Positions 3,601 to 31,157 of a stretch of DNA of 31,826 nt are shown here, in pieces; position 1 is the stretch's first letter, and each line of letters begins with the position of its first letter. Below the pieces are notes generated by a model, which did no database searches, was not told the origin of the DNA, and saw only the letters and a list, made by a program, of their open reading frames with translations. The stretch covers positions 5,913,217 to 5,945,042 of the forward strand of contig JAGDYQ010000025.1 in NCBI GenBank assembly GCA_021962125.1, written 5' to 3'. A program made the position numbers and the translations under genes. The DNA is from Bulinus truncatus (taxonomy: Eukaryota).

Positions 3601-4033
3601 ATTAAGAACAAGTGAAATGTTTCAATCCGGTTTTATTTTTTAAAGTCAGAGCTGGAATTTGTACCTTTCCAGTTAAAGCAGAAAGTGCTGACCAGATGGA
3701 ACGGACATCCCACTGACAACCCTTTTCTTGGGATCCATTTTAATTGGGTTTCACATTTCACACAGACAACTGGAATAACAATTGCAACAAGAAGACAGTA
3801 CCTTTTATTTTGTTTAACTTGAATATTCAATATTGATATGTCTTCATCTGATCAGATCTTGCCAAATTCAGTTGTTGTTTTTTTGAAGGCGATGTTTCAA
3901 TATGTGGTGCGTTTGTCATGTGGAGCGTTCGTTATGTGGAGCGTTCGTTGTGCAAGTTGTTCGTTAAGTGAGGTACACTGTTTGGTCATAAATGATCACT
4001 TATGGCAGTCCAAATATTAATTCATCATTTTAG

Positions 4034-4235
4034 GATCATCACTGCCCTGGCTACTATTGATGTTTTGGTCTCAACGCTGACCATCATTGTTATTGCCGTA
4101 GACCGCTACTCCACCATTGTCCATACGTCCACGGTAACAACACGTCATGTCGTTTCAGCACTGGTCATTATCTGGACCCTGGCCATTGTATTGTCTACGC
4201 CACTGTTTTGTTTTCATAAGATTGATACTCAGGAG
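4034..4235 (+). CDS. GPCR exon (TM3 with the DRY motif through TM4). The first base completes the split codon AG|G.
   Basis: Translation (R)IITALATIDVLVSTLTIIVIAVDRYSTIVHTSTVTTRHVVSALVIIWTLAIVLSTPLFCFHKIDTQE. AVDRY corresponds to the E/DRY motif and the Trp in TM4 is present. Acceptor ttttag at 4028-4033 and donor gtaaat at 4236. The phase matches the upstream exon. Confidence 0.8.
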
Positions 4236-4377
4236 GTAAATAAATCTACAGATGCTGCAATGTTAGTTTTATGTGGAAAAGATGAATAATTTCTTAAACA
4301 TATTCTTTTTCTTAAAACAAAAGGCAGCAAGAACTTTTCCGTGTAACATTTGTATTATCTAAATTGATTTAAGTGTT

Positions 4378-6315: not shown

Positions 6316-7175
6316 TAATCTGATATAAAGCTTTCCTCTAACCAAAGCGAAGCGTACCGCTGTGCTATTTCTCACGTGAGATTTTTCAAAGCGCGAAAAT
6401 CCCTCGCTACACCTAAGCGAAGCGAACGTAGGCGTCAGCCGACCGGATATAATGATTTTTTTAATTTTCTTTTTGTTTATTTGAAGACGTCGGCAGACAT
6501 TTTCTTCTTATGATATATTTTCTACAGTTATGGTATTTTATAAGTAAAAAGTGAAAAAAAACACTTACTGTTTGGTATAATCTGATATAATTCAAGTTGC
6601 TATATATAAATGTAAGTCTTATTTGTTAATTTTAAGACATTTATATCAATTTTAACCTTGATTTTCATTTGAGTCGATGTTTCTAGGCAGCCATTTTGGA
6701 TTGTTTACACTCGCGAAACGCGAAAAAACTCTGAAAGAAGCGATGCCGCGAAATTTCTCTGCACCGCCGCGGAAATTCTACGCGGTTTGAGCATCTCCAT
6801 ATAAATACATTGCCGAGAAATAGGGGCGAATTTCGCGAGCTACCTAGATACGCGAAATTCGCTTTGGTTAGAGGAAAGCTTAATTCAAGTTGCTATATAT
6901 AAATGTAAGTCTTATTTGTTAATTTTAAGACATCTATATCAATTTTAACCTTGATTTTCATTTGAGTCGATGTTTCTAGGCAGCCATTTTGGATTGTTTA
7001 CACTCGCGAAACGCGAAAATACTCTGAAAGAAGCGATGCCGCGAAATTTCTCTGCACCGCCGCGGAAATTCTACGCGGTTTGAGCATCTCCATATAAATA
7101 CATTGCCGAGAAATAGGGGCGAATTTCGCGAGCTACCTAGATACGCGAAATTCGCTTTGGTTAGAGGAGAGCTTA
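6316..7175. mobile_element. MITE-like element with 22-bp TIRs (aagctttcctctaaccaaagcg). The ~293 bp right-hand unit is tandemly duplicated (6583-6882 and 6883-7175).
   Basis: The left end at 6329-6350 is the reverse complement of cgctttggttagaggaaagctt at 6861-6882 and again at 7154-7175 (this copy reads ...gagagctt). The element lies inside the first long GPCR intron. Confidence 0.6.
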
Positions 7176-7290
7176 ATTAAAACGCTTCCATTAATCAAAT
7201 TAAGTTGTTTTTTGTTTTTTTTGTTGTTTCTTTGTTCTTTGTTTTGCTTGTTTTTAAATACTGCTAGAACAAAATGGATTGTCTGTGCAG

Positions 7291-8836: not shown

Positions 8837-8869
8837 GTGAGTATAAACTCTATATAAAAGCTGATCTAA

Positions 8870-9200
8870 ACGTCCGATAATAGTTCTAAAAATAGATGAT
8901 TTACGATACAAGGTAATAGTTCTATAAAACATGATTTAAGATACCAGCTAATAGTTCTATAAAATATATGATATGATACCAGGTAACAGTTCTATATAAT
9001 AGATGATCTAAGATACCAGCTAATAGTTCTATAAAATATATGATAAGATACCAGGTAACAGTTCTATATAATAGATGATCTAAGATACCAGGTAACAGTT
9101 CTATATAATAGATGATCTAAGATACCAGGTAACAGTTCTATATAATAGATGATCTAAGATACCAGGTAACAGTTCTATATTATAGATGATCTAAGACACG
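8870..9200. repeat. 37-bp minisatellite (...ataccaggtaacagttctatataatagatgatctaag...) with about 8 copies, starting about 35 bp after the donor of GPCR exon 4.
   Basis: Tandem periodicity. Confidence 0.9.
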
Positions 9201-11448: not shown

Positions 11449-12553
11449 TAAAAGAGTAACAATTGTTGCTGTAATATTGATCTGTGTAACAATTGTTGCT
11501 GTAATATTGAACTATGTAACACTTGTTGCTGTAATATTGAACTGTGAAACAATTGTTGCTGTAATGTTTAACTTTGTAACAATTGTTGCTGTAATACTGA
11601 GCTATTTAACAATTTTTGCTGTAATATTGAACTATACTGTAATATTAAACTATGTAACAATTGTTGCTGTAATATTGAACTGTGTAACCATTGTTGCTGT
11701 AATATTGAGCTGTGTAATAATTGTTGCTGTAATATTGAACTATGTAACAATTGTTGCTGTAATATTGAACTATGTAACAATTGTTGCTGTAATATTGAAC
11801 TATGTAACAATTGTTGCTGTAATATTGAACTGTGTAACAATGGTTGCTGTAATATTGAACTGCCTGACAATTGTTGCTGTAATATTGAACTATTTAACAA
11901 TTGTTGCTGTAATATTGAACTATGTAACAATTGTTGCTGTAATATTGAACTATGTAACAATTGTTGCTGTAATATTGAACTATGTAACAATTGTTGCTGT
12001 AATATTGAACTATGTAACAATTGTTGCTGTAATATTGAACTATGTAACAATTGTTGCTGTAATATTGAACTATGTAACAATTGTTGCTGTAATATTGAAC
12101 TATGTAACAATTGTTGCTGTAATATTGAACTATGTAACAATTGTTGCTGTAATATTGAACTATGTAACAATTGTTGCTGTAATATTGAACTATGTAACAA
12201 TTGTTGCTGTAATATTGAACTATGTAACAATTGTTGCTGTAATATTGAACTATGTAACAATTGTTGCTGTAATATTGAACTATGTAACAATTGTTGCTGT
12301 AATATTGAACTATGTAACAATTGTTGCTGTAATATTGAACTATGTAACAATTGTTGCTGTAATATTGAACTATGTAACAATTGTTGCTGTAATATTGAAC
12401 TATGTAACAATTGTTGCTGTAATATTGAACTATGTAACAATTGTTGCTGTAATATTGAACTATGTAACAATTGTTGCTGTAATATTGAACTATGTAACAA
12501 TTGTTGCTGTAATATTGAACTATGTAACAATTGTTGCTGTAATATTGAACTAT
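11449..12553. repeat. 30-bp satellite (ctatgtaacaattgttgctgtaatattgaa) of about 1.1 kb with roughly 37 copies, inside a GPCR intron.
   Basis: Highly homogeneous central copies with diverged edges. It is open in six frames, which yields the spurious 382-, 320- and 244-aa ORFs. Confidence 0.95.
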
Positions 12554-13136
12554 TGTTGTGGTTTTTAATCTACTCAGGTTAATAAATTGTTTCAATCTAT
12601 TTTTTAAATCTTCATACAATAGGAACAAACACTGTATTAATTAACGGCCTACGTTCATGTCGTATGAGATCTCTGGTTATTTCTACTCAGTTAATGTGCT
12701 GACAGCATATAGGGGCTACGTCACAGATCATTTTCTGATAACATGAAATAAATTAATTTAAAAAAAAAATATCTTGATAGAAAAGTAAATAATATTTACA
12801 GAAAAAACAAAATTATGAAAATAAAAAAAATCATAGATAGCATGCTGATATTATAAACAGTTGGCAGTGGCCATGACAGATATGTCTCATGTGCGGTCTT
12901 CGAAGTACGCGGGGTCTAGGACGAGTGATTCGAGAGCTAAGTCAGGGACGGTCGCCCCAGATGCCACACCCTAAGGCAAGTACTGGACTCATGAGAGAGC
13001 TAAAGATTAGTAGAGGTAGTATGTGTCTCTGAGGTCCACGCCCGCCCCATCCATATATCCACTGGTACACCAAACATTTCCCATTCTTGTTATTGTCACT
13101 AATTGTCAAGTTTATTTCTTTTCGCCCGCCATTAAT

Positions 13137-13335
13137 GTACACATCTCACCATACTTTGACCTACTTTATGTACACATCTCACCTTATTTTGACCTACTTT
13201 ATGTACACATCTCACCTTATTTTGACCTACTTTATGTACACATCTCACCGTATTTTGACCTACGTTATGTACACATCTCACCGTATTTTGACCTACTTTA
13301 TGTACACATCTCACCTTATTTTGACCTACTTTAGT
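13137..13335. repeat. 33-bp minisatellite (tacacatctcaccttattttgacctactttatg) with about 6 copies, ending about 80 bp upstream of the acceptor of the final GPCR exon.
   Basis: Tandem periodicity. The 103-aa and 84-aa ORFs here are artefacts. Confidence 0.9.
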
Positions 13336-13416
13336 AAATGATCTTTACTGTATTTAAGTGTTAGAATTATAACGTTCTTCATCTTGATTAATAGATATAT
13401 TTTTTTTATATCACAG

Positions 13417-14142
13417 GTTTTCCAAGAAAGTCAGTACAATTTGCTCCATGCTGTAAGCCTGCTGTTAGCTATGTCATCATCTGTAGCCAACCCTGTCATG
13501 TATGGTTGGTTCAATACCAACTTTAGGAAAGCATTTTGTGAGTTGCTCGGTTTCCAGGAGGTTGTTAGCGGAAACTTAAAATTTTCTAGCAACGACAGAC
13601 ATCATAAAAAATATTCAAGCTTAAGGAACCACCAGGAATACAATCAACTGTCCAGACCGCCAGTCAATTTTGACACCCAACTACCGCGGTTCCATTCCTC
13701 CCCAGTTTTAAGAATGCGCACTGGCAGGCATAGTTTGAATGACTTGTCAATGACTGACCGGAAACAGTTTTCTTTAGATAAATGTATGAAATGTTCACAC
13801 AGTCTTCATGACTTAAAACATTACAGATATAAAGAAGAAACATCATTACTGGAATACCAGCAAAATGCACTAGCTAAAGAAATCAGGTTGAAAATGACAG
13901 AGAGAAACCCTCTAGTGGTACACGGCCATGATGGTGTGTCTATAGGCCATCCTTATGGAGTGGAGTCCCTGCACAGACGAGATTGTTATATGGCTCATCA
14001 TGAATCTAGTTTAGCGATTTGTTCCCCGGATGACAAGACCGTCAGTCTTCATCTGCTCAATGTGGTGGTGGAAGTGTCCCCGGAGACCCGCTCCACCCAC
14101 CGGGCGCACAGCTCCAGCGATTTAGATACGGACTTGAAATAA
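13417..14142 (+). CDS. GPCR terminal exon: TM7 with NPxxY, helix 8 and a long C-terminal tail, ending at TAA 14140-14142.
   Basis: Translation VFQESQYNLLHAVSLLLAMSSSVANPVMYGWFNTNFRKAFCELL... NPVMYGWFNTNFRKAF aligns with NPY1R NPIFYGFLNKNFQRDL. Acceptor tatcacag at 13409-13416. The phase is continuous with the exon ending at 8836. This is a continuous 242-codon ORF. Confidence 0.85.
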   Translation, partial: VFQESQYNLLHAVSLLLAMSSSVANPVMYGWFNTNFRKAFCELLGFQEVVSGNLKFSSNDRHHKKYSSLRNHQEYNQLSRPPVNFDTQLPRFHSSPVLRMRTGRHSLNDLSMTDRKQFSLDKCMKCSHSLHDLKHYRYKEETSLLEYQQNALAKEIRLKMTERNPLVVHGHDGVSIGHPYGVESLHRRDCYMAHHESSLAICSPDDKTVSLHLLNVVVEVSPETRSTHRAHSSSDLDTDLK

Positions 14143-16667: not shown

Positions 16668-17425
16668 GTGAGACTCACTACAATACGTAGTTCTAGACAT
16701 GGTGTGGCGCCAGACTCACTACAATACGTAGTTCTAGAAATGGTGTGGCGTCAGACTCACTACAATACGTAGTTCTAGACATGGTGTGGCGCCAGACTCA
16801 CTACAATACGTAGTTCTAGAAATGGTGTGGCGTCAGACTCACTACAATACGTAGTTCTAGACATGGTGTGGCGCCAGACTCACTACAATACGTAGTTCTA
16901 GACATGGTGTGGCGCCAGACTCACTACAATACGTAGTTCTAGACATGGTGTGGCGCCAGACTCACTACAATACGTAGTTCTCGACATGGTGTGGCGCCAG
17001 ACTCACTACAATACGTAGTTCTCGACATGGTGTGACGCCAGACTCACTATAATACGTAGTTCTAGAAATGGTGTGGCGCCAGACTCACTACAATACGTAG
17101 TTCTAGAAATGGTGTGGCGCCAGGCTCACTACAATACGTAGTTCTAGAAATGAAGTGGCGCCAGACTCACTACAGTACGTAGTTCTAGAAATGAAGTGGC
17201 GCCAGACTCACTACAATAGAAATGGTGTGGCGCCAGACTCACTACAATACGTAGTTCTAGAAATGAAGTGGCGCCAGACTCACTACAATACGTAGTTCTA
17301 GAAATTGTGTGGCGCCAGACTCACTACAATACGTAGTTCTAGAAATGAAGTGGCGCCAGACTCACTACAGTACGTAGTTCTAGAAATGAAGTGGCGCCAG
17401 ACTCACTACAGTACGTAGTTCTAGA
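16668..17425. repeat. 41-bp satellite (agactcactacaatacgtagttctagacatggtgtggcgcc) with about 18 copies.
   Basis: Direct tandem periodicity with the variants agacatgg and agaaatgaag. Confidence 0.95.
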
Positions 17426-17961: not shown

Positions 17962-18400
17962 TGAAATGTATTCTAATATATTGTAATGTATTAAAATGTA
18001 ATATTATGTATTATTATGTATTATTTTGTATTATTATATATTCTAATGTATTTTAATATAATGTGAAATATAATGTAATATAATGTAATATAATGTATTC
18101 TAATGTAATATAATGTAAAATATAATGTATTCTAATATAATATATTGTATTATAATGTAAAATATAATGTATTATAATGTAATATAATGTAAAATATATT
18201 GTATTATTATGTAATACAATGTATTATAATGTATTTTAATGTAATATAATGTATTCTAATGTAATATATTGTATTTTTATGTAATATATTGTATTTTAAT
18301 GTAATATATTGTATTATAATGTAATATAATGTATTATAATGTAATATAATGTATTATAATGTAATATATTGTATTATAATGTATTCTAATGCTACTTGTC
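17962..18400. repeat. AT-rich 10-bp-period simple repeat (tgtaatataa / tgtattataa)n.
   Basis: Visible periodicity. Confidence 0.85.
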
Positions 18401-18478: not shown

Positions 18479-19970
18479 TTAGGGGCTGTTCATTAATTAT
18501 GTCAACAATTTTTTGGCGATTTTTACATTCCCCCGTTCCCCTTGTCAACAACTTGTCAAACTTACAGAGACCCCCCCCCACCCCATATAAACGTATCAAC
18601 ATTCGACAATAAAATGGGGAAAAAAATACTTTAAATAGACTAGTTTACAACTACAACAAAAAAGTGAATAAATGTAAAATGTTTGAAAAAAAAGTTAAAT
18701 AAACTTTTAACTTATGAATATATTTCTAATTTATAACTATAAAGGCCTACCCTAAACAGAAAAAGAGATTATAGGGTTTAAAAAATTGTATACACATTAC
18801 ACCTTTAAATTATGAACATATTTCAAATTAAATATCACTTTAAAGACTATTTAAATGTTTACAAAGACTTGTTCTAACTTCAAGCAGAAACGAGATTAAA
18901 AAGTTAAACTATAAATACACTTTTAAGTTATTAACATAATATTTTACAAACAAATACAAATCTTATATCCTAGCCTCTATATCTTCCCATGGAAATGTCA
19001 AATGTTCCTCAATTGTTATTATTGGCATAGGTTCTGGCTGAATAATTTCTTGTGGAACCGCAACAACAGATGAGTATATATTTTCTTCATCTAGCCATTC
19101 TGCGCGCATTTCCCCATGAGCAATAATTGTCATGAGCTCTCTGTCTTTTGGCAACCACTCGCATTGGACGAATTCTTTGCATGTAGTATTTGACTGGGGG
19201 CAGGCATACATTGTTTGTGCTGTTGAACGTGCTTCTTTAACATGGCTTGCGATGCAACATAAAGGTGACAGATTTTACAGATTAGTTCAAACTATAGCAG
19301 CTGAATAGATGGACAACATATATCACGCAGAAGAATTTTGAATGCTTTTTGTAGTATGTTTTCAACTTTCACAGACTGATTGAAAAAAATAGATGGAAAT
19401 CTATGTGAGTTTTTATCAGATACATCTGGTGCTTTAAGGCCCTCATTAGTTTGGCAGACTGGAATTGGTGGGGGTATAAATCTATCAGCCATAATATCAA
19501 AGCACGAGCTTCTAAGCGGTTGGCAACATTTGACAACTTGTAGAAAGTACTGACTTGTTCTTACAAGTACTTGATCTTTAATTATTAAATTTTCAACTTC
19601 AAGCTCAGACTTTTCAGGCACAATGTACACTGCCACTGATGGAAAATTGTCTATGCTTACTTGCTTCCATATTTCTGTCAATGTTTCGCCAGCATATTTC
19701 AGGTTTATTTTTCTCAACTTTTCATCAATTGTTCGACCTTGTGTCAATGTGGCTTCCAAAATGTTTATGTGGCAAAATTAGTAGGAATATAGTTAGTTTA
19801 ATTAAAATACTGAAGGTTGGGTGAGTGTATAACACAGAAATACAAAGGCAGTTTAATTATCCGTTGTTAAGTAATTAAATGAATTTAAAGAAAATAACAT
19901 TGTTGACGTCAACTTTTCTTGACCTCACCCTCCCCCTATTTTGTTGACATAATTAACGGACAACCCCTTA
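18479..19970. mobile_element. DNA-transposon-like element of about 1.49 kb bounded by imperfect 30-bp terminal inverted repeats and containing the unidentified ORF pair.
   Basis: The left end ttaggggctgttcattaattatgtcaacaa (18479-18508) matches the reverse complement of 19941-19970, taaggggttgtccgttaattatgtcaacaa, at 26 of 30 positions. Both ends carry subterminal gtcaacaa / ttgtcaaca repeats and C-rich tracts. The right end abuts a (CA)n run. Confidence 0.55.
18963..19759 (-). pseudogene. Unidentified coding region on the minus strand. It consists of a 155-aa ORF (19759-19292) and an 82-aa ORF (19211-18963) that are offset by one frame. It could be a frameshifted gene, a gene with a short intron, or the ORF of a transposable element. 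No homolog was recognised.
   Basis: Two long stop-free stretches sit in a ~33% GC background where random ORFs this long are rare. The second frame stays open back to within about 15 nt of the first ORF's stop codon. The pair lies inside a 30-bp TIR-bounded unit (18479-19970). Confidence 0.35.
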
Positions 19971-20026
19971 CACACACACACACACACCGATCGCTAAGCA
20001 ATTAATATCGTAGACTAATGTAACTC

Positions 20027-20405
20027 ACGACTCATTTATCAGTAGTGAAACACTCAAGACTTATTTATCAGTAGTGAAACACTCAAGACTCATTTATCAG
20101 TAGTGAAACACTCAAGACTTATTTATCAGTAGTGAAACACTCAAGACTTATTTATCAGTAGTGAAACACTCAAGACTTATTTATCTGTAGTGAAACACTC
20201 AAGACTTATTTATCAGTAGTGAAACACTCAAGACTTATTTATCTGTAGTGAAACACTCAAGACTTATTTATCAGTAGTGAAACACTCAAGACTTATTTAT
20301 CAGTAGTGAAACACTCAAGACTTATTTATCAGTAGTGAAACACTCAATACTCATTTATCAGTAGTGAAACACTCAAGACTTATTTATCAGTAGTGAAACA
20401 CTCAT
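20027..20405. repeat. 29-bp minisatellite (actcaagacttatttatcagtagtgaaac) with about 13 copies.
   Basis: Tandem periodicity. It lies immediately downstream of the TIR element and its (CA)n run. Confidence 0.95.
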
Positions 20406-21379
20406 GATCAAAACTAGACTTAGAAAGTGTGGAATTTGATAGGGAACGAATAATTTATCACCCAGGCTGCATACATGATTCTTTAATGTCCATAATTTTG
20501 AATACCCGGCAGCTCATTAGTCAAAAGTTAAGTTCATTGGTGCCGACTCCGCTTCTGAAAAGGGGGTGGGGGCAATAGAGAGCAACTGTTTTAGTTTACT
20601 TACCAGGATGTTAAGACATTGATTTAACTAGGTACTGCAACAAATGATAAATATTGCAATGTAACATTGATAGCCCATTAACATAGCATTGAAATATTTT
20701 CATAGCAAGAACAGAAAAGAAAGGGTTTTATAACTTTAAGAAAAAGTCATTGAATTGAATTCACAGACAAGTACTTTTGTTATCAAAAGCAACAACAACT
20801 ATATTTCAATAATATCCATCCATTAGTATAGAACCAAAGTTCTATTTCAGCCATAATCATGAATGACTATCAAATCTTAATGAAAAGCTAAATAATAATC
20901 TAGCTAATCCCTCGCTAATCCGATCACAAACTTTTACATTCATCCGAAACAGATAAAGAGTTTTAAAATGTAAAGATCAGTGAAGAAACGTGTTTTCGAA
21001 ACTTACGCTGTATGATTATTTACTTAGTGATAAACGTTCAAACACCAGTTGACTGTATCAGTAAGTAGATACTGTAATATGTCATTTATCTTCATTATTC
21101 CCAGCGATCCACTCAAGTATGAGATTATAAGTAGACTCTCGGGACCCAGAGAAAATCATGTTTATATTTAGACAGAGAGATAATACTAAGTCAAAGTTGT
21201 CTTTAAGCAAAGAAACAAGTTGCACACAACGGGGGATCATAGACTCATAGGGAAATGTGTCTTTTTCTTTACATTCATGTAACAGCTGAGTGTCAGTAGT
21301 GTGGAAAAAACTAATAGTCACTATGAGTATTGTAAACTATAAAAAAATTTTCTTAACCTCTCATTTTTCTGATATCCTT

Positions 21380-21960
21380 TAACAGTATATTTTTGGCGCC
21401 ACCACTGCTAGCATGACAGAGTGTTGTGTGCCATCCGCAAGAGCTTCATTGGCGCCGCATGATGCGTGTCTGCCATGCCTACAGAGCGGCGGTGTGAATG
21501 TGTCTACTACATCTGCCAGGGGACGGATGATCATGTGGTAAAGCACTCGACAGTCGACCTGAAAGTCCCTGGTGTGATCTCCGGTGAGGACCAATGGATA
21601 TTTGTCATGGCTTAAGTCCCCGCTATATCTCCCGTGGTGCCTCCATGGCCATTGCACTATCGGCTATGATAGGGATGAAAAAAGGAAACCATCCCATTAG
21701 TGGTTTATGGGATCTAAGAGATTTCATCTCATCCTTACAGGGACTGCACACACTACATCTACCAGCATGGCAGAAAAAGGGCGGCTGAAAAAAGCAGGCT
21801 GCGAGAATACCTGAGTGGGACAGAGTGGAATGGTGTTGTGCTGACACCATCCGTCACAAACCCCCAGCTGTGAATACCATGTTCACTGCTTTACCTCATT
21901 GGCTGTGGTATTACCACTGGCGCAAAAAGGTTTTTTTTTCTAATCTGGCCAGAAGACACC
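21380..21960. mobile_element. GC-rich interspersed repeat, SINE-like, containing A-box-like ...cagtggt... motifs.
   Basis: There is an abrupt rise in GC content relative to the flanks. The segment 21610-21760 recurs in diverged form at 30160-30300, and its tail is related to the 57-bp satellite at 1808-2140. The ORFs called here on both strands are not credible proteins. Confidence 0.45.
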
Positions 21961-23356
21961 AGACAGATCATGGTAAATATCTGCCGAATCAGGAATGCAT
22001 GCCAAACAACACAAATACAGTATAATTTAGAAAAGCATTTGTAAATATTTGCAGCTATTTTGGTGAAAAAACAAAAGCTTTAGAAAATTATATTTTTATT
22101 ATGCATATCTTTTTTTGAAAAAATGTACAAAGAATTTCAAAACTAAAAATTAAGTAGATAATTTGACAGATACTGATTTTTTTTAAAATAATGATACATT
22201 TTTAAAACCAAACACCCATATAAAAATAAAATAAAATATATGTTTAAACATTTTTAAAAATATATATATAATTTGTACAATAAACTAAAAGTCCCAAAAA
22301 TTAAAACAATGTATTTATCATACATATGCTGTGAAATTCATTTTACTAACTTTAATCAAATGATCAAGGAATGTAAAATATAAAAACATATAACATATAA
22401 AATACTTAGATATTTACTAAATCGTCACAAATATGAGAATAATGCAGCTTAATAAAATAAAGGAAAGATAACATCTTTTTCTACAAACTATAGAAATATA
22501 AAAACAAAAAACATTGTATGACAGCATTATCAAAAAGAAGGTTTGTATGAATCATGTATCACAGATCTATTTTATCTTGAAATTGAGCACATATTAAATA
22601 AAACAACTGCACATCCAGTGTCTTGTACAAATCAGAATTTCAATCTGCTCATAAAGTGCAAATTTCAAATTGATACATTTTCCTAATTAACTTGTGTAAA
22701 TGGACAAATACATTTCTATGTCTTACAAAAAAGTATATTTATTTGACTTGAACAATATTTACTCTTTGACAAGAGGCAAAAAGTAGATTATACCAGCTGC
22801 TAAGAATATATCAGTTGCCAGTTCATTATTATATTAGAACGACATAAGAAGGAAGAAAACCTTTGAAATGAATTTCAAAAGTTGGAATAATCAAACAAGA
22901 TGTTTTACAACAGCTTATACTAAGAACCAAGCTTATAATGGAGAAAAATACTCAAAAACAAATGTTTGAATTACAAGGTGAAATTGGATTACAAGTTGTT
23001 GTTTTTTTATGATTAAATATAATTGAGGATTTGAGAAATCTGGTTTCTATGGTATGGAGGTACAGCTATTTTAATGGCATGATATACATTTCAATCAAAA
23101 GCTGAGGCACAAAACTGCAAGTAAAAATGTTACAGTTTCATACAAAAAAATAGTAAAAAAAGTATTAATATTTGATAAATGTATATAAAAAAATTTCTGT
23201 AAAGGAAAGAGCACACTTCAAGTGATCAGTGTTCAATATCACATTTTTAAGATCAAAACAAAACTTATGTAACAAATATTAATTACATAAAATAGGTACA
23301 TTTTATCAAGTACAAAAATTCAAACACACTTTGTTATGTCAACATGTAACAGTAGC

Positions 23357-26932: not shown

Positions 26933-27075
26933 CAAGTTATTCACATCAAATTTAAGGAATTCTTTATTATCTCCATGAGAGTCTCTGCCAAAGACTGCTG
27001 CATGTATAATTTTTGCAGAATAGCGATGAAAAGAGTCAAATGATGTAAGGGCCACACTTGCACGAATTCTGCTTC
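26933..27075 (-). CDS. MVP: MVP exon
   Basis: (G)SRIRASVALTSFDSFHRYSAKIIHAAVFGRDSHGDNKEFLKFDVNNL, compared with human [32 protein letters not shown]... Acceptor caacaaaag, donor gtaagt. Confidence 0.85.
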
Positions 27076-27179
27076 CTTTTGTTGATATATATATGATAAA
27101 TTATGTTACTATATATTACGTCAGAATATATTATGTCAATAAATCTTTATAAGTCTTAGGTTAATATAAATTAAGTCAT

Positions 27180-27602: not shown

Positions 27603-27681
27603 CAATCTGGCGGCAGGCGAAGCCAATAAAATCAGGTACTGAAAAAATTTTCTTGGCACTTAGTTCATCTTTTTTGTCCAC
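27603..27681 (-). CDS. MVP: MVP exon
   Basis: VDKKDELSAKKIFSVPDFIGFACRQI, compared with human [27 protein letters not shown]. Acceptor ttaacaaag, donor gtcagt. Confidence 0.85.
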
Positions 27682-27814
27682 CTTTGTTAAATAGCGAAAT
27701 TCAAAAGAAATATAGCATAAAAACTTTAAGTAACATAAAACTTAAAAATAAATTGTAATAATAATAAAAAAAAAAAAGTTATGAGTAAAGAATGATTTGA
27801 ATGACCAACTGAAC

Positions 27815-28874: not shown

Positions 28875-29050
28875 CTGAGAGATTGCAGGAAAAAAAAAAC
28901 TCAAATGTAAAAAAATTTAACTATTATTAAATTTTTTTCTTCTTTTTAATCATATAGACAGACTAATTATTAGGAATAATATTTCTAGCATAAGTTTAAA
29001 AAAAAAAATCCTATAATGGATAATTATTTACTAAGCTAGTTTTGAAGCAC

Positions 29051-29129
29051 CTTTAAAATTGAAGGATCAATGGACTGCTCATAGTATGCCAGTTTTCTTA
29101 TATCCCCACTGCCAAGTCCTCCACCATGG
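29051..29129 (-). CDS. MVP: MVP exon (variable linker before the shoulder domain)
   Basis: (S)HGGGLGSGDIRKLAYYEQSIDPSILK. It occupies the position of human GQDPLADRGEKDTAKSLQPLAP, a region that is poorly conserved. The call rests on phase continuity (it receives 2 bases and ends in phase 0), an acceptor ttatcaatag and a donor gtgctt. Confidence 0.6.
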
Positions 29130-29352
29130 CTATTGATAAAAGAAATGTAAACTACTAAACCTGTTAATTCAGTGTACATACATACTAAGAGGAAAAACTA
29201 ATAAACAACTTGAAGAGTAACTAATAAACAGCTTTATAGCTTAAATAATAAAAGCTTTAAAGCGTAAGTAATAAACATTGCAAATTATTATCAATGTAGG
29301 CTAATAATTATTTCAACAAAGAAATAATTTTTATGTATGTTAAACCAATTAC

Positions 29353-29447
29353 CTCATTAACTGCTCTACTTCCTCACTTAATTCTTTTTCCCACAATTCT
29401 TCAGTGGCAGTTAACATATAGGAACAAGGTCCCATAACTAGGCGAAC
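29353..29447 (-). CDS. MVP: MVP exon
   Basis: VRLVMGPCSYMLTATEELWEKELSEEVEQLM, compared with human [32 protein letters not shown]. Acceptor tttctcag, donor gtaatt. Confidence 0.9.
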
Positions 29448-29695
29448 CTGAGAAATGTACATAATACAAGTTACTTGTGTACGATACCTGAGTAATGTAC
29501 GTAATATGAGTAACTTGTGTATGATACCTGAGTAATGTAGTAATACGAATTACTTGTGTATGATTGAACCTGAGTAATGTACATAATACAAGTTACTTGT
29601 GTATGATACCTGAGTAATGTACATAATACGAGTAACTTGTGTATGATAGAACCTGAGTAATGTACGTAACATGAGTAACTTGTTTATGTTAGTTA
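29446..29695. repeat. Minisatellite of about 40 bp (acctgagtaatgtacataatacaagttacttgtgtatgat) with about 6 copies, abutting the acceptor of MVP exon 29353-29447.
   Basis: Tandem periodicity. Each unit contains cctgag, which in minus sense reads ctcag|gt and mimics the true acceptor. Confidence 0.9.
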
Positions 29696-30159
29696 ATCAA
29701 TGAATTGCAGTTTTCCTTGGTTAAATTTACCAAATGTACAGCTAACTAAAAATTTCCACTGGTAAACAGTTACTCTAATGTGGTTTTGCTTTAAATAGTA
29801 AAAAAATTGGTTTAACTATACACCCCTTCCCTACAAATTAACTAATTGTTAATAATCTCAGAAACTAGAACCAATCCAAAAACATATTCTTAATCAGCAT
29901 CCTTTAACTTATATAAAAATGCTGGGATAATATCTGCACCTGAAACAAAGTTTCATTTTGTATTGCTGTTTATTCATTAAATATTCTAAAATCCTGCTTG
30001 TGGGATGAAGTGGAGGGGCGGGACAGATATTGTGCCGTAAAGAGCATGTTACTAATTAATTGTCAACCTAAATTTCCTCGATTTGTAACCCTTTGATTCT
30101 ACATTATTTGGCCTTGGTGAAAGTTCACAGATCTACCCAGCGTAAAAATAATGCACCAG

Positions 30160-30300
30160 ACTTAAGTTGTCCTAGTCACTAACCTATCTCCATGTCTCCA
30201 CAGCCATTGCATTCTCTGCAATAGCAGGAACTACAAAAATCATCCCAATAGTGGTTTATTGAATATAACAGAGAATTATCTCATCCTTACAGTGACTTAC
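30160..30300. mobile_element. Partial second copy of the interspersed repeat at 21610-21760, in the same orientation. It lies inside an MVP intron.
   Basis: ...cttaagttgtcctagtcactaacctatctccatgtctccacagccattgcattc...catcccaatagtggtttattg...atctcatccttacagtgac aligns with ...cttaagtccccgctatatctcccgtggtgcctccatggccattgcact...catcccattagtggtttatgg...atctcatccttacagggac. Confidence 0.55.
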
Positions 30301-30394
30301 ATTACAAAATGTACAAACATTTTTTTAAAAAAAGTAGCCTATTACAGCAGAGAAAAATAATTTAAATTTTAAATATACTTTTAAAAATTCTTAC

Positions 30395-30455
30395 TTTTCC
30401 CACATGTGTATCTTGTATGTAAACTCCTTCATTTTTACTCAGGGGGATTGTTTTC
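30395..30455 (-). CDS. MVP: MVP exon
   Basis: (R)KTIPLSKNEGVYIQDTHVGK, compared with human AIPLDENEGIYVQDVKTGK. Acceptor ttttag, donor gtaaga. The phase continues from 31158. Confidence 0.85.
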
Positions 30456-31157
30456 CTAAAATTAAAAATTAATAATAATTATACAGCTATTAATTATAGG
30501 CTATTTATAGATTTTTAAAAAAAAAAACTTTTTATATAAAATTAATCTGAAAAAACTTAAATATATATTTAATTTCTTTCCATGATTAAATTGGTGGACA
30601 ACATACGCTTAGTGAAATTCCCATCATAAACAATTTTATAAAATAAATTTTATGTATGAGTTTATTCTTTTCTTGTTAACTTGTTTTTCTTTCCTTTTTT
30701 TACATCTAGAAACTAGATAAAAGAGTAATTTGTAATTAGTAGTAACTAGCAATAATTTTTTTTTAAAAGTCAAACCAAATTTCATATTGAATTACAAACT
30801 GAAATAAGATAAAATATTAAGATTTAAAGCTGTCTAGTGATGCTGCTCGAAGAACAAATTATTTAAATGTGAACTTTCAACTATTTCGTCCAAAAAAAGT
30901 CCTTTTAATAATCTGTTTATTTGTATCCAACTTTCCATGTTTATCAATTATTTTGACATGAGCCATTGAAACACAGGTCAGATTAGAATTAGCATATTTG
31001 CTACATACCATACACTTAATTTTTATATAGTAATTTTAGAACTAACTAAAACGTTAACTGAAAAAAAATTGTGCATCATAAATTATTTGTTAATAGAAGA
31101 CATTAATGATAGTTTTGTTGGTTAAAAAAAATGAACAATGATTAAAAAAGCCTATAC

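What the first reader, a model, noticed from the sequence alone, without database searches (positions are those of the whole stretch)
29446..29695. Tandem array that duplicates the 3' splice site of an MVP exon, giving six serial pseudo-acceptors
The repeat unit begins at the exon-intron boundary itself. In minus sense every unit reads ...tgtacattactcag|gtatcat..., while the genuine site is ...tgtacatttctcag|GTTCGC. The array therefore appears to have arisen by duplication of the acceptor plus the first two exonic bases. It offers six evenly spaced cryptic AG acceptors spanning roughly 200 nt immediately upstream of the real one. This could support alternative or aberrant splicing, or it could be under selection to remain non-functional.
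Basis: seen in the sequence. Interest (0 to 1): 0.6.

Follow-up and report, generated by a model that had tools for sequence, protein, structure and literature searches.

The report
Minisatellite copying an MVP splice acceptor
A 40-base tandem repeat inside an intron of an invertebrate major vault protein gene has copied the intron's 3' splice signal five extra times; it is a real but probably harmless by-product of a repeat-rich genome, and a mirror image of a known human case (F7 intron 7).

Summary
A 40-43-nt minisatellite (minus strand, about 29691-29444) ends exactly at the acceptor of a 95-nt MVP exon (29447-29353). There are six CTCAG|GT sites in all: five pseudo-acceptors plus the genuine one, not six plus one.

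The genuine site differs from every pseudo-site by one base, T instead of A at -6 (29453). Two units share four exon bases (GTTC), not two.

The intron position (phase 0, ...GK|VR...) is the same in a spider, a fish and a related metagenomic contig. All three have a single acceptor and no array. The acceptor is therefore ancestral and the array a later, lineage-specific duplication across it.

Use of any pseudo-acceptor would give a premature stop codon. The gene is otherwise intact, so the exon-proximal site must be the productive one.

The window is very minisatellite-rich (16.5% of bases), so an array touching a splice site is not surprising.

Whether the pseudo-sites are silent, leaky or regulatory cannot be decided without RNA data. 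The closest precedent is the human F7 intron-7 minisatellite, which does the same at a donor site. Interest is modest.

The parts
30395..30455 (-). Upstream MVP exon (Eb, 61 nt), ending ...GGAAAA, followed by the donor GTAAGA
   Evidence: Sequence; tblastn to P0001/P0003/P0010/P0020; GT-AG check and an open frame over 11 exons
29448..30394 (-). Phase-0 intron of 947 nt between ...HVGK and VRLVMGP...; the position is conserved in spider, fish and contig L007
29688..29692 (-). CTAAC, a perfect branch-point consensus at the head of the first unit, 37 nt upstream of the first pseudo-acceptor. The homologous position in internal units reads CTATC/CAATC/GTATC, so the branch A is absent there
   Evidence: Only 2 of 13 other introns of this gene have a CTRAY motif 12-60 nt from the acceptor
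29444..29691 (-). The minisatellite: six units of 43(+), 43, 40, 42, 40 and 40 nt. The last unit contains the genuine branch-site region, pyrimidine tract and AG. Similarity runs 2 nt (all units) to 4 nt (two units) into the exon
   Evidence: TRF 29446-29688; unit dissection and alignment
29653..29654 (-). Pseudo-acceptor AG ps1 (ttactcag|GTTCTA); use adds 205 nt, frame +1, stop after 19 codons
29610..29611 (-). Pseudo-acceptor AG ps2 (ttactcag|GTATCA); use adds 162 nt, in frame, but TAA after 19 codons
29570..29571 (-). Pseudo-acceptor AG ps3 (ttactcag|GTTCAA); use adds 122 nt, stop after 32 codons. Its unit (u3) differs from the real unit at only 2 of 40 positions
29528..29529 (-). Pseudo-acceptor AG ps4 (ttactcag|GTATCA); use adds 80 nt, stop after 18 codons
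29488..29489 (-). Pseudo-acceptor AG ps5 (ttactcag|GTATCG); use adds 40 nt, frameshift, stop inside the exon after 28 codons
29448..29449 (-). Genuine acceptor AG (tttctcag|GTTCGC)
   Evidence: Homology across the junction with no gap; same intron position in three other animals
29453..29453 (-). Position -6 of the genuine acceptor: T here, A in all five pseudo-sites. This is the only difference within 8 nt of the AG, and it lengthens the pyrimidine run from 3 to 6
29353..29447 (-). MVP exon Ec, 95 nt (VRLVMGPCSYMLTATEELWEKELSEEVEQLM + 2 nt), donor GAG|GTAATT
29466..29518 (-). Predicted hairpin between complementary unit cores ACAAGTTACT (29518-29509, u5) and AGTAACTTGT (29475-29466, u6), enclosing ps5. 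A twin hairpin lies at 29640-29631 : 29597-29588, enclosing ps2
   Evidence: Centroid fold. Weak support: z = -2.4, and 2 of 100 shuffles fold as well

Best explanation
This is a lineage-specific intronic minisatellite. It arose by tandem duplication of the last ~39 nt of an ancient phase-0 MVP intron plus the first 4 nt of the exon, followed by further unit duplication and a 3-nt deletion that produced the 40-nt units.

A duplication that spans an acceptor always leaves an intact copy next to the exon, so the gene was not broken. The exon-proximal unit (u6) supplies the working 3' splice signal: a GTAAC branch-like motif at -24, TTTCTC, then CAG.

The five upstream copies are decoys. Each is weakened by one base (A at -6 interrupts the pyrimidine run) and each lacks an adjacent exon. 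I infer that they are silent or used only at a low level. Any transcript that does use one carries a premature stop codon many exon junctions upstream of the 3' end, and so should be removed by nonsense-mediated decay. The net effect is at most a small loss of productive MVP mRNA.

Shown: the array, its register, the ancestral intron position, the absence of the array in relatives, the reading-frame consequences, and the intact gene.

Inferred: the order of duplication events, the silence or leakiness of the pseudo-sites, and decay by NMD.
For: - The array and its register at the acceptor.
- The long units of 43/42 nt equal 39 intronic nt plus GTTC from the exon. The head of u1 aligns with the internal units.
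- The same intron position and phase occurs in Araneus L001, Goodea L004 and the related genomic contig L007, where the acceptor is single and TRF finds no array.
- No copy of the unit, degenerate copies included, lies elsewhere in the intron, the next intron or the window.
- Eleven exons with GT-AG borders assemble into an open 390-residue MVP frame, so the productive acceptor must be used.
- All five pseudo-acceptors lead to stop codons.
- The real site has T at -6 and a pyrimidine run of 6. All pseudo-sites have A at -6 and a run of 3.
- A minisatellite-rich background makes such an accident likely.
- Precedent: in the F7 intron-7 minisatellite the pseudo-sites are functional but silent and the exon-proximal site wins (PMC1557585).
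Against: - The genuine acceptor is among the weakest of the gene's 14 acceptors. Its leave-one-out PWM score is -2.85 bits, and three pseudo-sites score higher. The model was trained on only 13 sites and is noisy.
- The best branch-point consensus (CTAAC) sits next to the first pseudo-acceptor, not the real one.
- Predicted RNA accessibility does not favour the real site (0.52 against 0.54-0.71).
- Classic duplicated-acceptor experiments disagree on which copy wins (Lang & Spritz 1983 against Kuhne et al. 1983, as cited in PMC1557585).
- No transcript data were available, so silence of the pseudo-sites is not shown.
Confidence: 0.65

Rival explanations
1. Leaky or regulated decoy. The pseudo-acceptors are used at an appreciable rate and divert part of the pre-mRNA into stop-containing transcripts that are degraded. 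The array then lowers or tunes MVP output, possibly in proportion to copy number or to splicing-factor levels.
For: - Each unit is a near-complete 3' module: a branch-like motif 20-24 nt upstream in four of five pseudo-units, then ttactcag.
- The real site is weak and differs by one base.
- CTAAC lies 37 nt upstream of ps1, a typical branch-point distance (the 19-37 nt range is quoted in PMC10078293).
- All products carry premature stops.
- Intronic VNTRs are known to alter splicing, for example ABCA7, TERT VNTR6-1 and NARS2.
Against: - No transcript evidence.
- No conservation: the array is absent from L007, spider and fish.
- Arrays of this kind are everywhere in this window, which favours accident over design.
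- In the F7 case the pseudo-sites are silent.
Confidence: 0.2
2. Dispersed repeat origin. The 40-nt array belongs to a repeat family, for example the internal satellite of a mobile element, that inserted next to the exon and from which the present acceptor was recruited. In that case the array would not be a copy of the acceptor.
For: The genome is rich in minisatellites. The unit has internal 20-nt substructure (10 of 20 positions identical between its halves; TRF periods 18 and 20 at 64% matches), which suggests an older repeat history.
Against: - The intron position and phase are ancient, so an acceptor existed here before the array.
- Units carry 2-4 bases identical to the exon start.
- No other copy lies in 31.8 kb.
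- No terminal repeats or element-like features flank the array.
Confidence: 0.05
3. Recursive (ratchet) splicing. Each CAG|GT junction is a juxtaposed acceptor and donor. Splicing to a pseudo-acceptor would regenerate a donor (AAA|GTATCA or AAA|GTTCTA) that is then re-spliced to the real acceptor, which would make use of the pseudo-sites harmless.
For: - AG|GT is present in every unit.
- Regenerated donors match GTAAGT at 2-3 of 6 positions, which overlaps the bottom of the real donor range in this gene (2-6; for example Eg GTTCAG, Ea GTATAG).
- The second-step introns from ps1-ps3 would be 205, 162 and 122 nt, within or close to the gene's range (the shortest real intron measured is 133 nt).
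Against: - The regenerated donors lack G at +5 and are weak.
- The GT is simply inherited from the exon start.
- To my knowledge, recursive splicing is described for very long introns, not for a 947-nt one.
- ps4 and ps5 would leave 80- and 40-nt introns, shorter than any measured in this gene.
Confidence: 0.04
4. Assembly artefact or individual-specific allele. The copy number, or the array itself, may be mis-assembled or may be a rare variant.
For: Tandem arrays are prone to assembly error. Only one sequence is available.
Against: The units differ from one another at 2-13 positions and in length, which is not what collapsed or stuttered identical repeats look like. The flanks are colinear with the gene.
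Confidence: 0.03

Closest known systems
Human F7 (coagulation factor VII) intron-7 37-bp VNTR minisatellite (Borensztajn et al. 2006, PMC1557585)
   Same: A minisatellite of about 40 nt whose terminal unit contains the exon-intron junction, so the authentic splice site is accompanied by a row of five or more unit-spaced pseudo-sites inside the intron. The authentic site is the exon-proximal one. Most pseudo-sites would break the reading frame.
   Different: F7 duplicates the donor (5') site, and its pseudo-sites are identical to the real one. Here the acceptor (3') site is duplicated together with branch-like and pyrimidine elements, and the real site differs by one base. F7 is experimentally characterised and known to be polymorphic. 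Nothing is known here about usage or polymorphism.
Engineered tandem duplications of acceptor sites in globin genes (Lang & Spritz 1983; Kuhne et al. 1983; cited in PMC1557585)
   Same: Two or more equivalent 3' splice sites in tandem compete for one donor.
   Different: Those constructs were artificial, had two copies, were in vertebrate cells, and gave conflicting outcomes. Here there are six natural copies in an invertebrate gene.
Intronic VNTRs that modulate splicing (ABCA7 VNTR, PMC5954066; TERT VNTR6-1, PMC11830802; NARS2 repeat between branch site and 3' splice site, PMC10078293)
   Same: An intronic tandem repeat near splicing signals, with the potential to change splice-site use in a length-dependent way.
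   Different: As far as the abstracts and passages I read show (I did not read the ABCA7 or TERT papers in full), those repeats do not contain the splice site itself. They act through distance, bound factors or structure.
NAGNAG / short-distance tandem acceptors
   Same: Alternative acceptors created by local duplication of the AG.
   Different: Their spacing is 3 nt and the products are in frame. Here the spacing is 40-43 nt and every product has a premature stop.

Membership tests
Minisatellite / VNTR | Head-to-tail tandem copies of a unit of about 10-100 nt | tested here: met
   TRF: period 40, 5.9 copies, 85% matches; units of 43/40/42/40/40 nt
Minisatellite / VNTR | Copy number varies among individuals | not testable with these tools
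   Only one sequence of this species is available; no same-species hits
Boundary-spanning splice-site minisatellite (F7 IVS7 type) | The terminal unit contains the exon-intron junction, so the splice site is repeated in every unit | tested here: met
   The last unit ends in the genuine CAG and similarity continues 2-4 nt into the exon. The site is the 3' one, not the 5' one as in F7
Boundary-spanning splice-site minisatellite (F7 IVS7 type) | [quoted passage not shown] | tested here: not met
   All five pseudo-sites read TTACTCAG and the real one reads TTTCTCAG. The branch-like motifs also vary among units
Boundary-spanning splice-site minisatellite (F7 IVS7 type) | Only the exon-proximal site is used in vivo; the pseudo-sites are silent but competent | not testable with these tools
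   No transcripts of this species were found. That the exon-proximal site is the productive one follows from homology and the reading frame
Major vault protein gene | Vault repeat domains and MVP shoulder; intact reading frame | tested here: met
   Pfam Vault_3 6e-36, Vault_4 1.6e-10, Vault. A 390-residue open frame over 11 GT-AG exons. 50-64% identity over about 385 residues to the intron-free metagenomic MVP loci
Recursive splice site (ratchet point) | An acceptor immediately followed by a strong donor consensus (AG|GTAAGT) within a very long intron | tested here: not met
   AG|GT is present, but the regenerated donors match GTAAGT at only 2-3 of 6 positions and lack +5 G. The intron is 947 nt
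NAGNAG tandem acceptor | Two AGs 3 nt apart giving in-frame isoforms | tested here: not met
   Spacing is 40-43 nt and every product has a premature stop
Known structured RNA (Rfam) | Match to a curated covariance model | tested here: not met
   No match at E <= 1 in 29000-30500 on either strand

The most novel reading that the evidence does not exclude
The array is a working, copy-number-dependent splicing decoy. The strong CTAAC branch site at its head and the five near-consensus acceptors capture a meaningful fraction of spliceosomes and route MVP pre-mRNA into nonsense-mediated decay, or through a recursive second step. Array length then sets MVP expression. The single T at -6 of the last unit would be the selected change that keeps the productive site ahead.
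Probability: 0.1. Interest if true: 0.55.

Novelty: new member of a known kind. Interest (0 to 1): 0.3.

Why it matters
If the pseudo-acceptors are silent, this locus is a natural six-copy competition experiment for 3' splice-site choice. The copies differ from the winner by one pyrimidine-tract base and by their branch-like motifs. It is the acceptor-side counterpart of the F7 donor-side model that was used to argue for directional scanning.

It could show whether exon proximity, the -6 base or the branch motif decides the choice, a question on which the old duplicated-acceptor experiments disagreed.

If the pseudo-sites are used, the locus would be an example of a VNTR throttling an abundant housekeeping-type protein through unproductive splicing.

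Either way, the locus shows that in minisatellite-rich invertebrate genomes arrays can engulf splice signals without destroying the gene. This matters for gene prediction, since six equally plausible acceptors can mislead annotators. As it stands the finding is a curiosity at one locus of an unidentified species.

Tried and rejected
1. Same-species transcripts or alleles. The protein search found nothing above 60-71% identity; the closest named hit is a Crassostrea gigas MVP fragment. Junction usage and polymorphism therefore could not be examined.
2. Closest long genomic contig, L005 (ENA, 518 kb). It has no intron at this position, so it cannot serve as a comparator. Nematostella also lacks the intron.
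3. A 13-site acceptor PWM. It was clearly overfitted. The leave-one-out version shows only that the real and pseudo sites are all weak and cannot be ranked. I do not rely on it.
4. RNA structure as the discriminator. The fold is only mildly better than shuffles (z = -2.4), and accessibility of the real site is no better than that of the pseudo-sites.
5. An older, longer array or a dispersed family. Local alignment of a unit dimer against the rest of the intron, the next intron and the whole window gave shuffle-level scores.
6. Known RNA families in the intron: none.
7. Literature on a natural acceptor-side minisatellite. Four searches found none in the held library. I recall a HEXB intron-13/exon-14 junction duplication that creates an alternative acceptor, but I could not verify it here, so I do not use it as evidence.
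8. I first placed the real-versus-pseudo difference at -5. Recounting puts it at -6.

Full report
**What is there.**
On the minus strand the window carries the 3' two-thirds of a major vault protein (MVP) gene.
- A peptide assembled from the exons hits Pfam Vault_3 (6e-36), Vault_4 (1.6e-10) and Vault.
- tblastn with five homologues maps at least eleven exons.
- With GT-AG borders these exons join into an uninterrupted 390-residue frame, so the gene looks functional.
- The exon in question is 29447-29353 (95 nt). The upstream exon ends at 30395 (...GGAAAA|gtaaga).
- The intron between them is 947 nt and phase 0, giving ...HVGK|VRLVMGPCSYML....
- Homologous proteins read through this junction without a gap.

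**The array.**
Tandem Repeats Finder reports 29446-29688, period 40, 5.9 copies, 85% matches, score 320. In minus sense the units, each ending in ...ACATTACTCAG, are:

| Unit | Length (nt) |
|---|---|
| u1 (head) | about 43 |
| u2 | 43 |
| u3 | 40 |
| u4 | 42 |
| u5 | 40 |
| u6 | 40 |

- The last unit ends in the genuine acceptor.
- There are six CAG|GT sites in total, five pseudo plus the real one.
- The eight bases before each junction are TTACTCAG in all five pseudo-sites and TTTCTCAG in the real one. This is a single difference at -6 (29453), and it lengthens the pyrimidine run from 3 to 6.
- After the junction, three units read GTATC and two read GTTC(T/A)ATC. The exon starts GTTCGCC, so similarity extends 2 nt in all units and 4 nt in two.
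- The 43-nt units fit 39 intronic nt plus GTTC. The head of the first unit (TAACATAAACAAG) aligns with the internal TATCATACACAAG. The 40-nt units look like 3-nt deletion derivatives.
- The real unit u6 differs from internal unit u3 at only 2 of 40 positions, so the acceptor-bearing unit has taken part in the array's recent turnover.

**Is it chance?**
- The repeat itself is not. A 28-nt unit probe matches three times within the array and nowhere else, against 0.00 expected.
- Its contact with a splice site is unremarkable in this genome. Nineteen arrays of period >=9 cover 16.5% of the window (21% outside the MVP part, 4.3% inside it).
- Random placement predicts 1.2-4.5 of the gene's 27 splice sites inside arrays. 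The chance that one of the six array ends in the gene part lies within +-4 nt of a junction is about 16%.

**Which came first.**
The intron position and phase are identical in three other animals.

| Source | Junction |
|---|---|
| Spider Araneus ventricosus (L001) | ...SGH\|IRLISG... |
| Fish Goodea atripinnis (L004) | ...TGK\|VRAVIG... |
| Related genomic metagenome contig L007 (GC 34%, same exon layout) | ...SGK\|VRAVMGP... |

- All three have one ordinary acceptor. TRF finds no array in L007's intron.
- Nematostella (L003) and an unnamed eukaryote (L005) lack the intron.
- The acceptor position is therefore ancestral among bilaterians, and the array is a later, lineage-specific duplication across it.
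- No degenerate copies lie elsewhere in the intron, the next intron or the window, which argues for a local origin rather than an inserted dispersed repeat.
- A tandem duplication that spans an acceptor always leaves an intact copy next to the exon, which explains why it was tolerated (inference).

**Consequences of using the pseudo-sites.**

| Pseudo-site | Extension (nt) | Stop after (codons) |
|---|---|---|
| ps5 | 40 | 28 |
| ps4 | 80 | 18 |
| ps3 | 122 | 32 |
| ps2 | 162 | 19 |
| ps1 | 205 | 19 |

- Only the 162-nt extension is in frame, and it contains TAA after 19 codons.
- With at least ten introns downstream, these stops meet the usual exon-junction rule for nonsense-mediated decay. 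That rule is established knowledge, and I assume it applies in this organism.
- None of the pseudo-sites can yield a useful protein isoform.

**How well can the machinery tell them apart?**
- The real acceptor is among the weakest of the gene's 14: pyrimidine fraction 0.65 at -20..-4 and run of 6, against 0.59-0.65 and run of 3 for the pseudo-sites.
- A leave-one-out PWM from 13 sites is too noisy to rank them.
- Each unit has an AG about 26 nt upstream, followed by a branch-like motif:

| Unit | Branch-like motif |
|---|---|
| u3 and real unit u6 | GTAAC at -24 |
| u4 | GTAAT |
| u1 and u5 | CTCAT at -20 |
| u2 | none |

- The only perfect consensus, CTAAC (29692-29688), sits at the head of the array, 37 nt before the first pseudo-acceptor. 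The homologous position in internal units has lost the branch A.
- Unit cores are mutually complementary (ACAAGTTACT against AGTAACTTGT), and the centroid fold pairs u2:u3 and u5:u6. The fold is only mildly better than shuffles (z = -2.4), and accessibility does not favour the real site.
- Sequence alone therefore does not explain exclusive use of the real site. Its advantages are the T at -6, which lies inside the [N]4AG hexamer that one preprint proposes as the main determinant among competing acceptors (10.1101/2024.03.21.586179), the GTAAC motif, and its position next to a real exon.

**Comparison with what is known.**
- The closest case is the human F7 intron-7 37-bp minisatellite. Its first unit spans the exon-intron boundary and creates five to nine identical pseudo-donors. 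These are competent but silent, and the exon-proximal site is used exclusively (PMC1557585).
- The present locus is its acceptor-side mirror image, with near-identical rather than identical sites.
- That paper also records that engineered duplicated acceptors gave contradictory results (Lang & Spritz 1983; Kuhne et al. 1983).
- Intronic VNTRs that influence splicing without containing the site are known: ABCA7, TERT and NARS2.
- I found no natural acceptor-side minisatellite in four literature searches. That is absence from this library, not proof of novelty.

**Verdict.**
The origin by duplication across the acceptor is well supported.
- The functional reading is open. I favour silent or slightly leaky decoys produced by neutral minisatellite turnover (0.65).
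- Appreciable unproductive splicing comes second (0.2).
- Dispersed-repeat origin, recursive splicing and assembly artefact are minor rivals.
- The locus is a new member of a known kind and of modest interest.

Noticed in passing
window 1-23300 (e.g. 11456-12553, 16671-17425, 20023-20404, 1812-2129, 8849-9196, 13135-13333, 17965-18391, 6588-7178): Exceptional density of minisatellites. Examples: 30 nt x about 36 copies, 41 nt x 18.7, 29 nt x 13, 51 nt x 6.2, 37/72 nt, 33 nt x 6, 10/20 nt x 21-42, and a 293-nt unit x 2. Arrays of period >=9 cover 21% of this part of the window, against 4.3% in the MVP part.
   Followed up: partly
window 4002-4289 (+) and 13384-14142 (+): Fragments of a rhodopsin-type GPCR on the plus strand. 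The first ORF hits Pfam 7tm_1 (2.5e-10) and has a DRY motif. The second has an NPxxY-like NPVMYGW motif but no Pfam hit. They are probably one gene split by an intron of about 9 kb packed with minisatellites.
   Followed up: partly
window 19292-19759 (-) and 18966-19274 (-): Two adjacent open frames of 155 and 103 residues with no Pfam match. Their nature is unknown.
   Followed up: partly
window 21001-22000: A local GC-rich patch (43% against a 33% average) containing a 92-residue ORF at 21379-21657 (-) with no Pfam match.
   Followed up: partly
window 29196-29277: A second small array (period 23, 3.5 copies, 80% matches) in the next MVP intron, about 67 nt upstream of the following acceptor. 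It does not touch a splice site.
   Followed up: no
window 27075-27100 and 27681-27710 (-): Two other MVP acceptors have very poor pyrimidine tracts (caacaaaag|GAAGC and tttaacaaag|GTGGAC). Several donors are far from consensus (GTTCAG, GTATAG, GTGCTT). Splice signals in this gene are generally degenerate.
   Followed up: partly
L005 10143-10195: In the unnamed relative (ENA contig ctg50610), a short intron inside the Vault_3 exon region is a CA-rich microsatellite. The gene caller read it through as coding sequence (HMHMHVHVHTCSHTHTHT).
   Followed up: no
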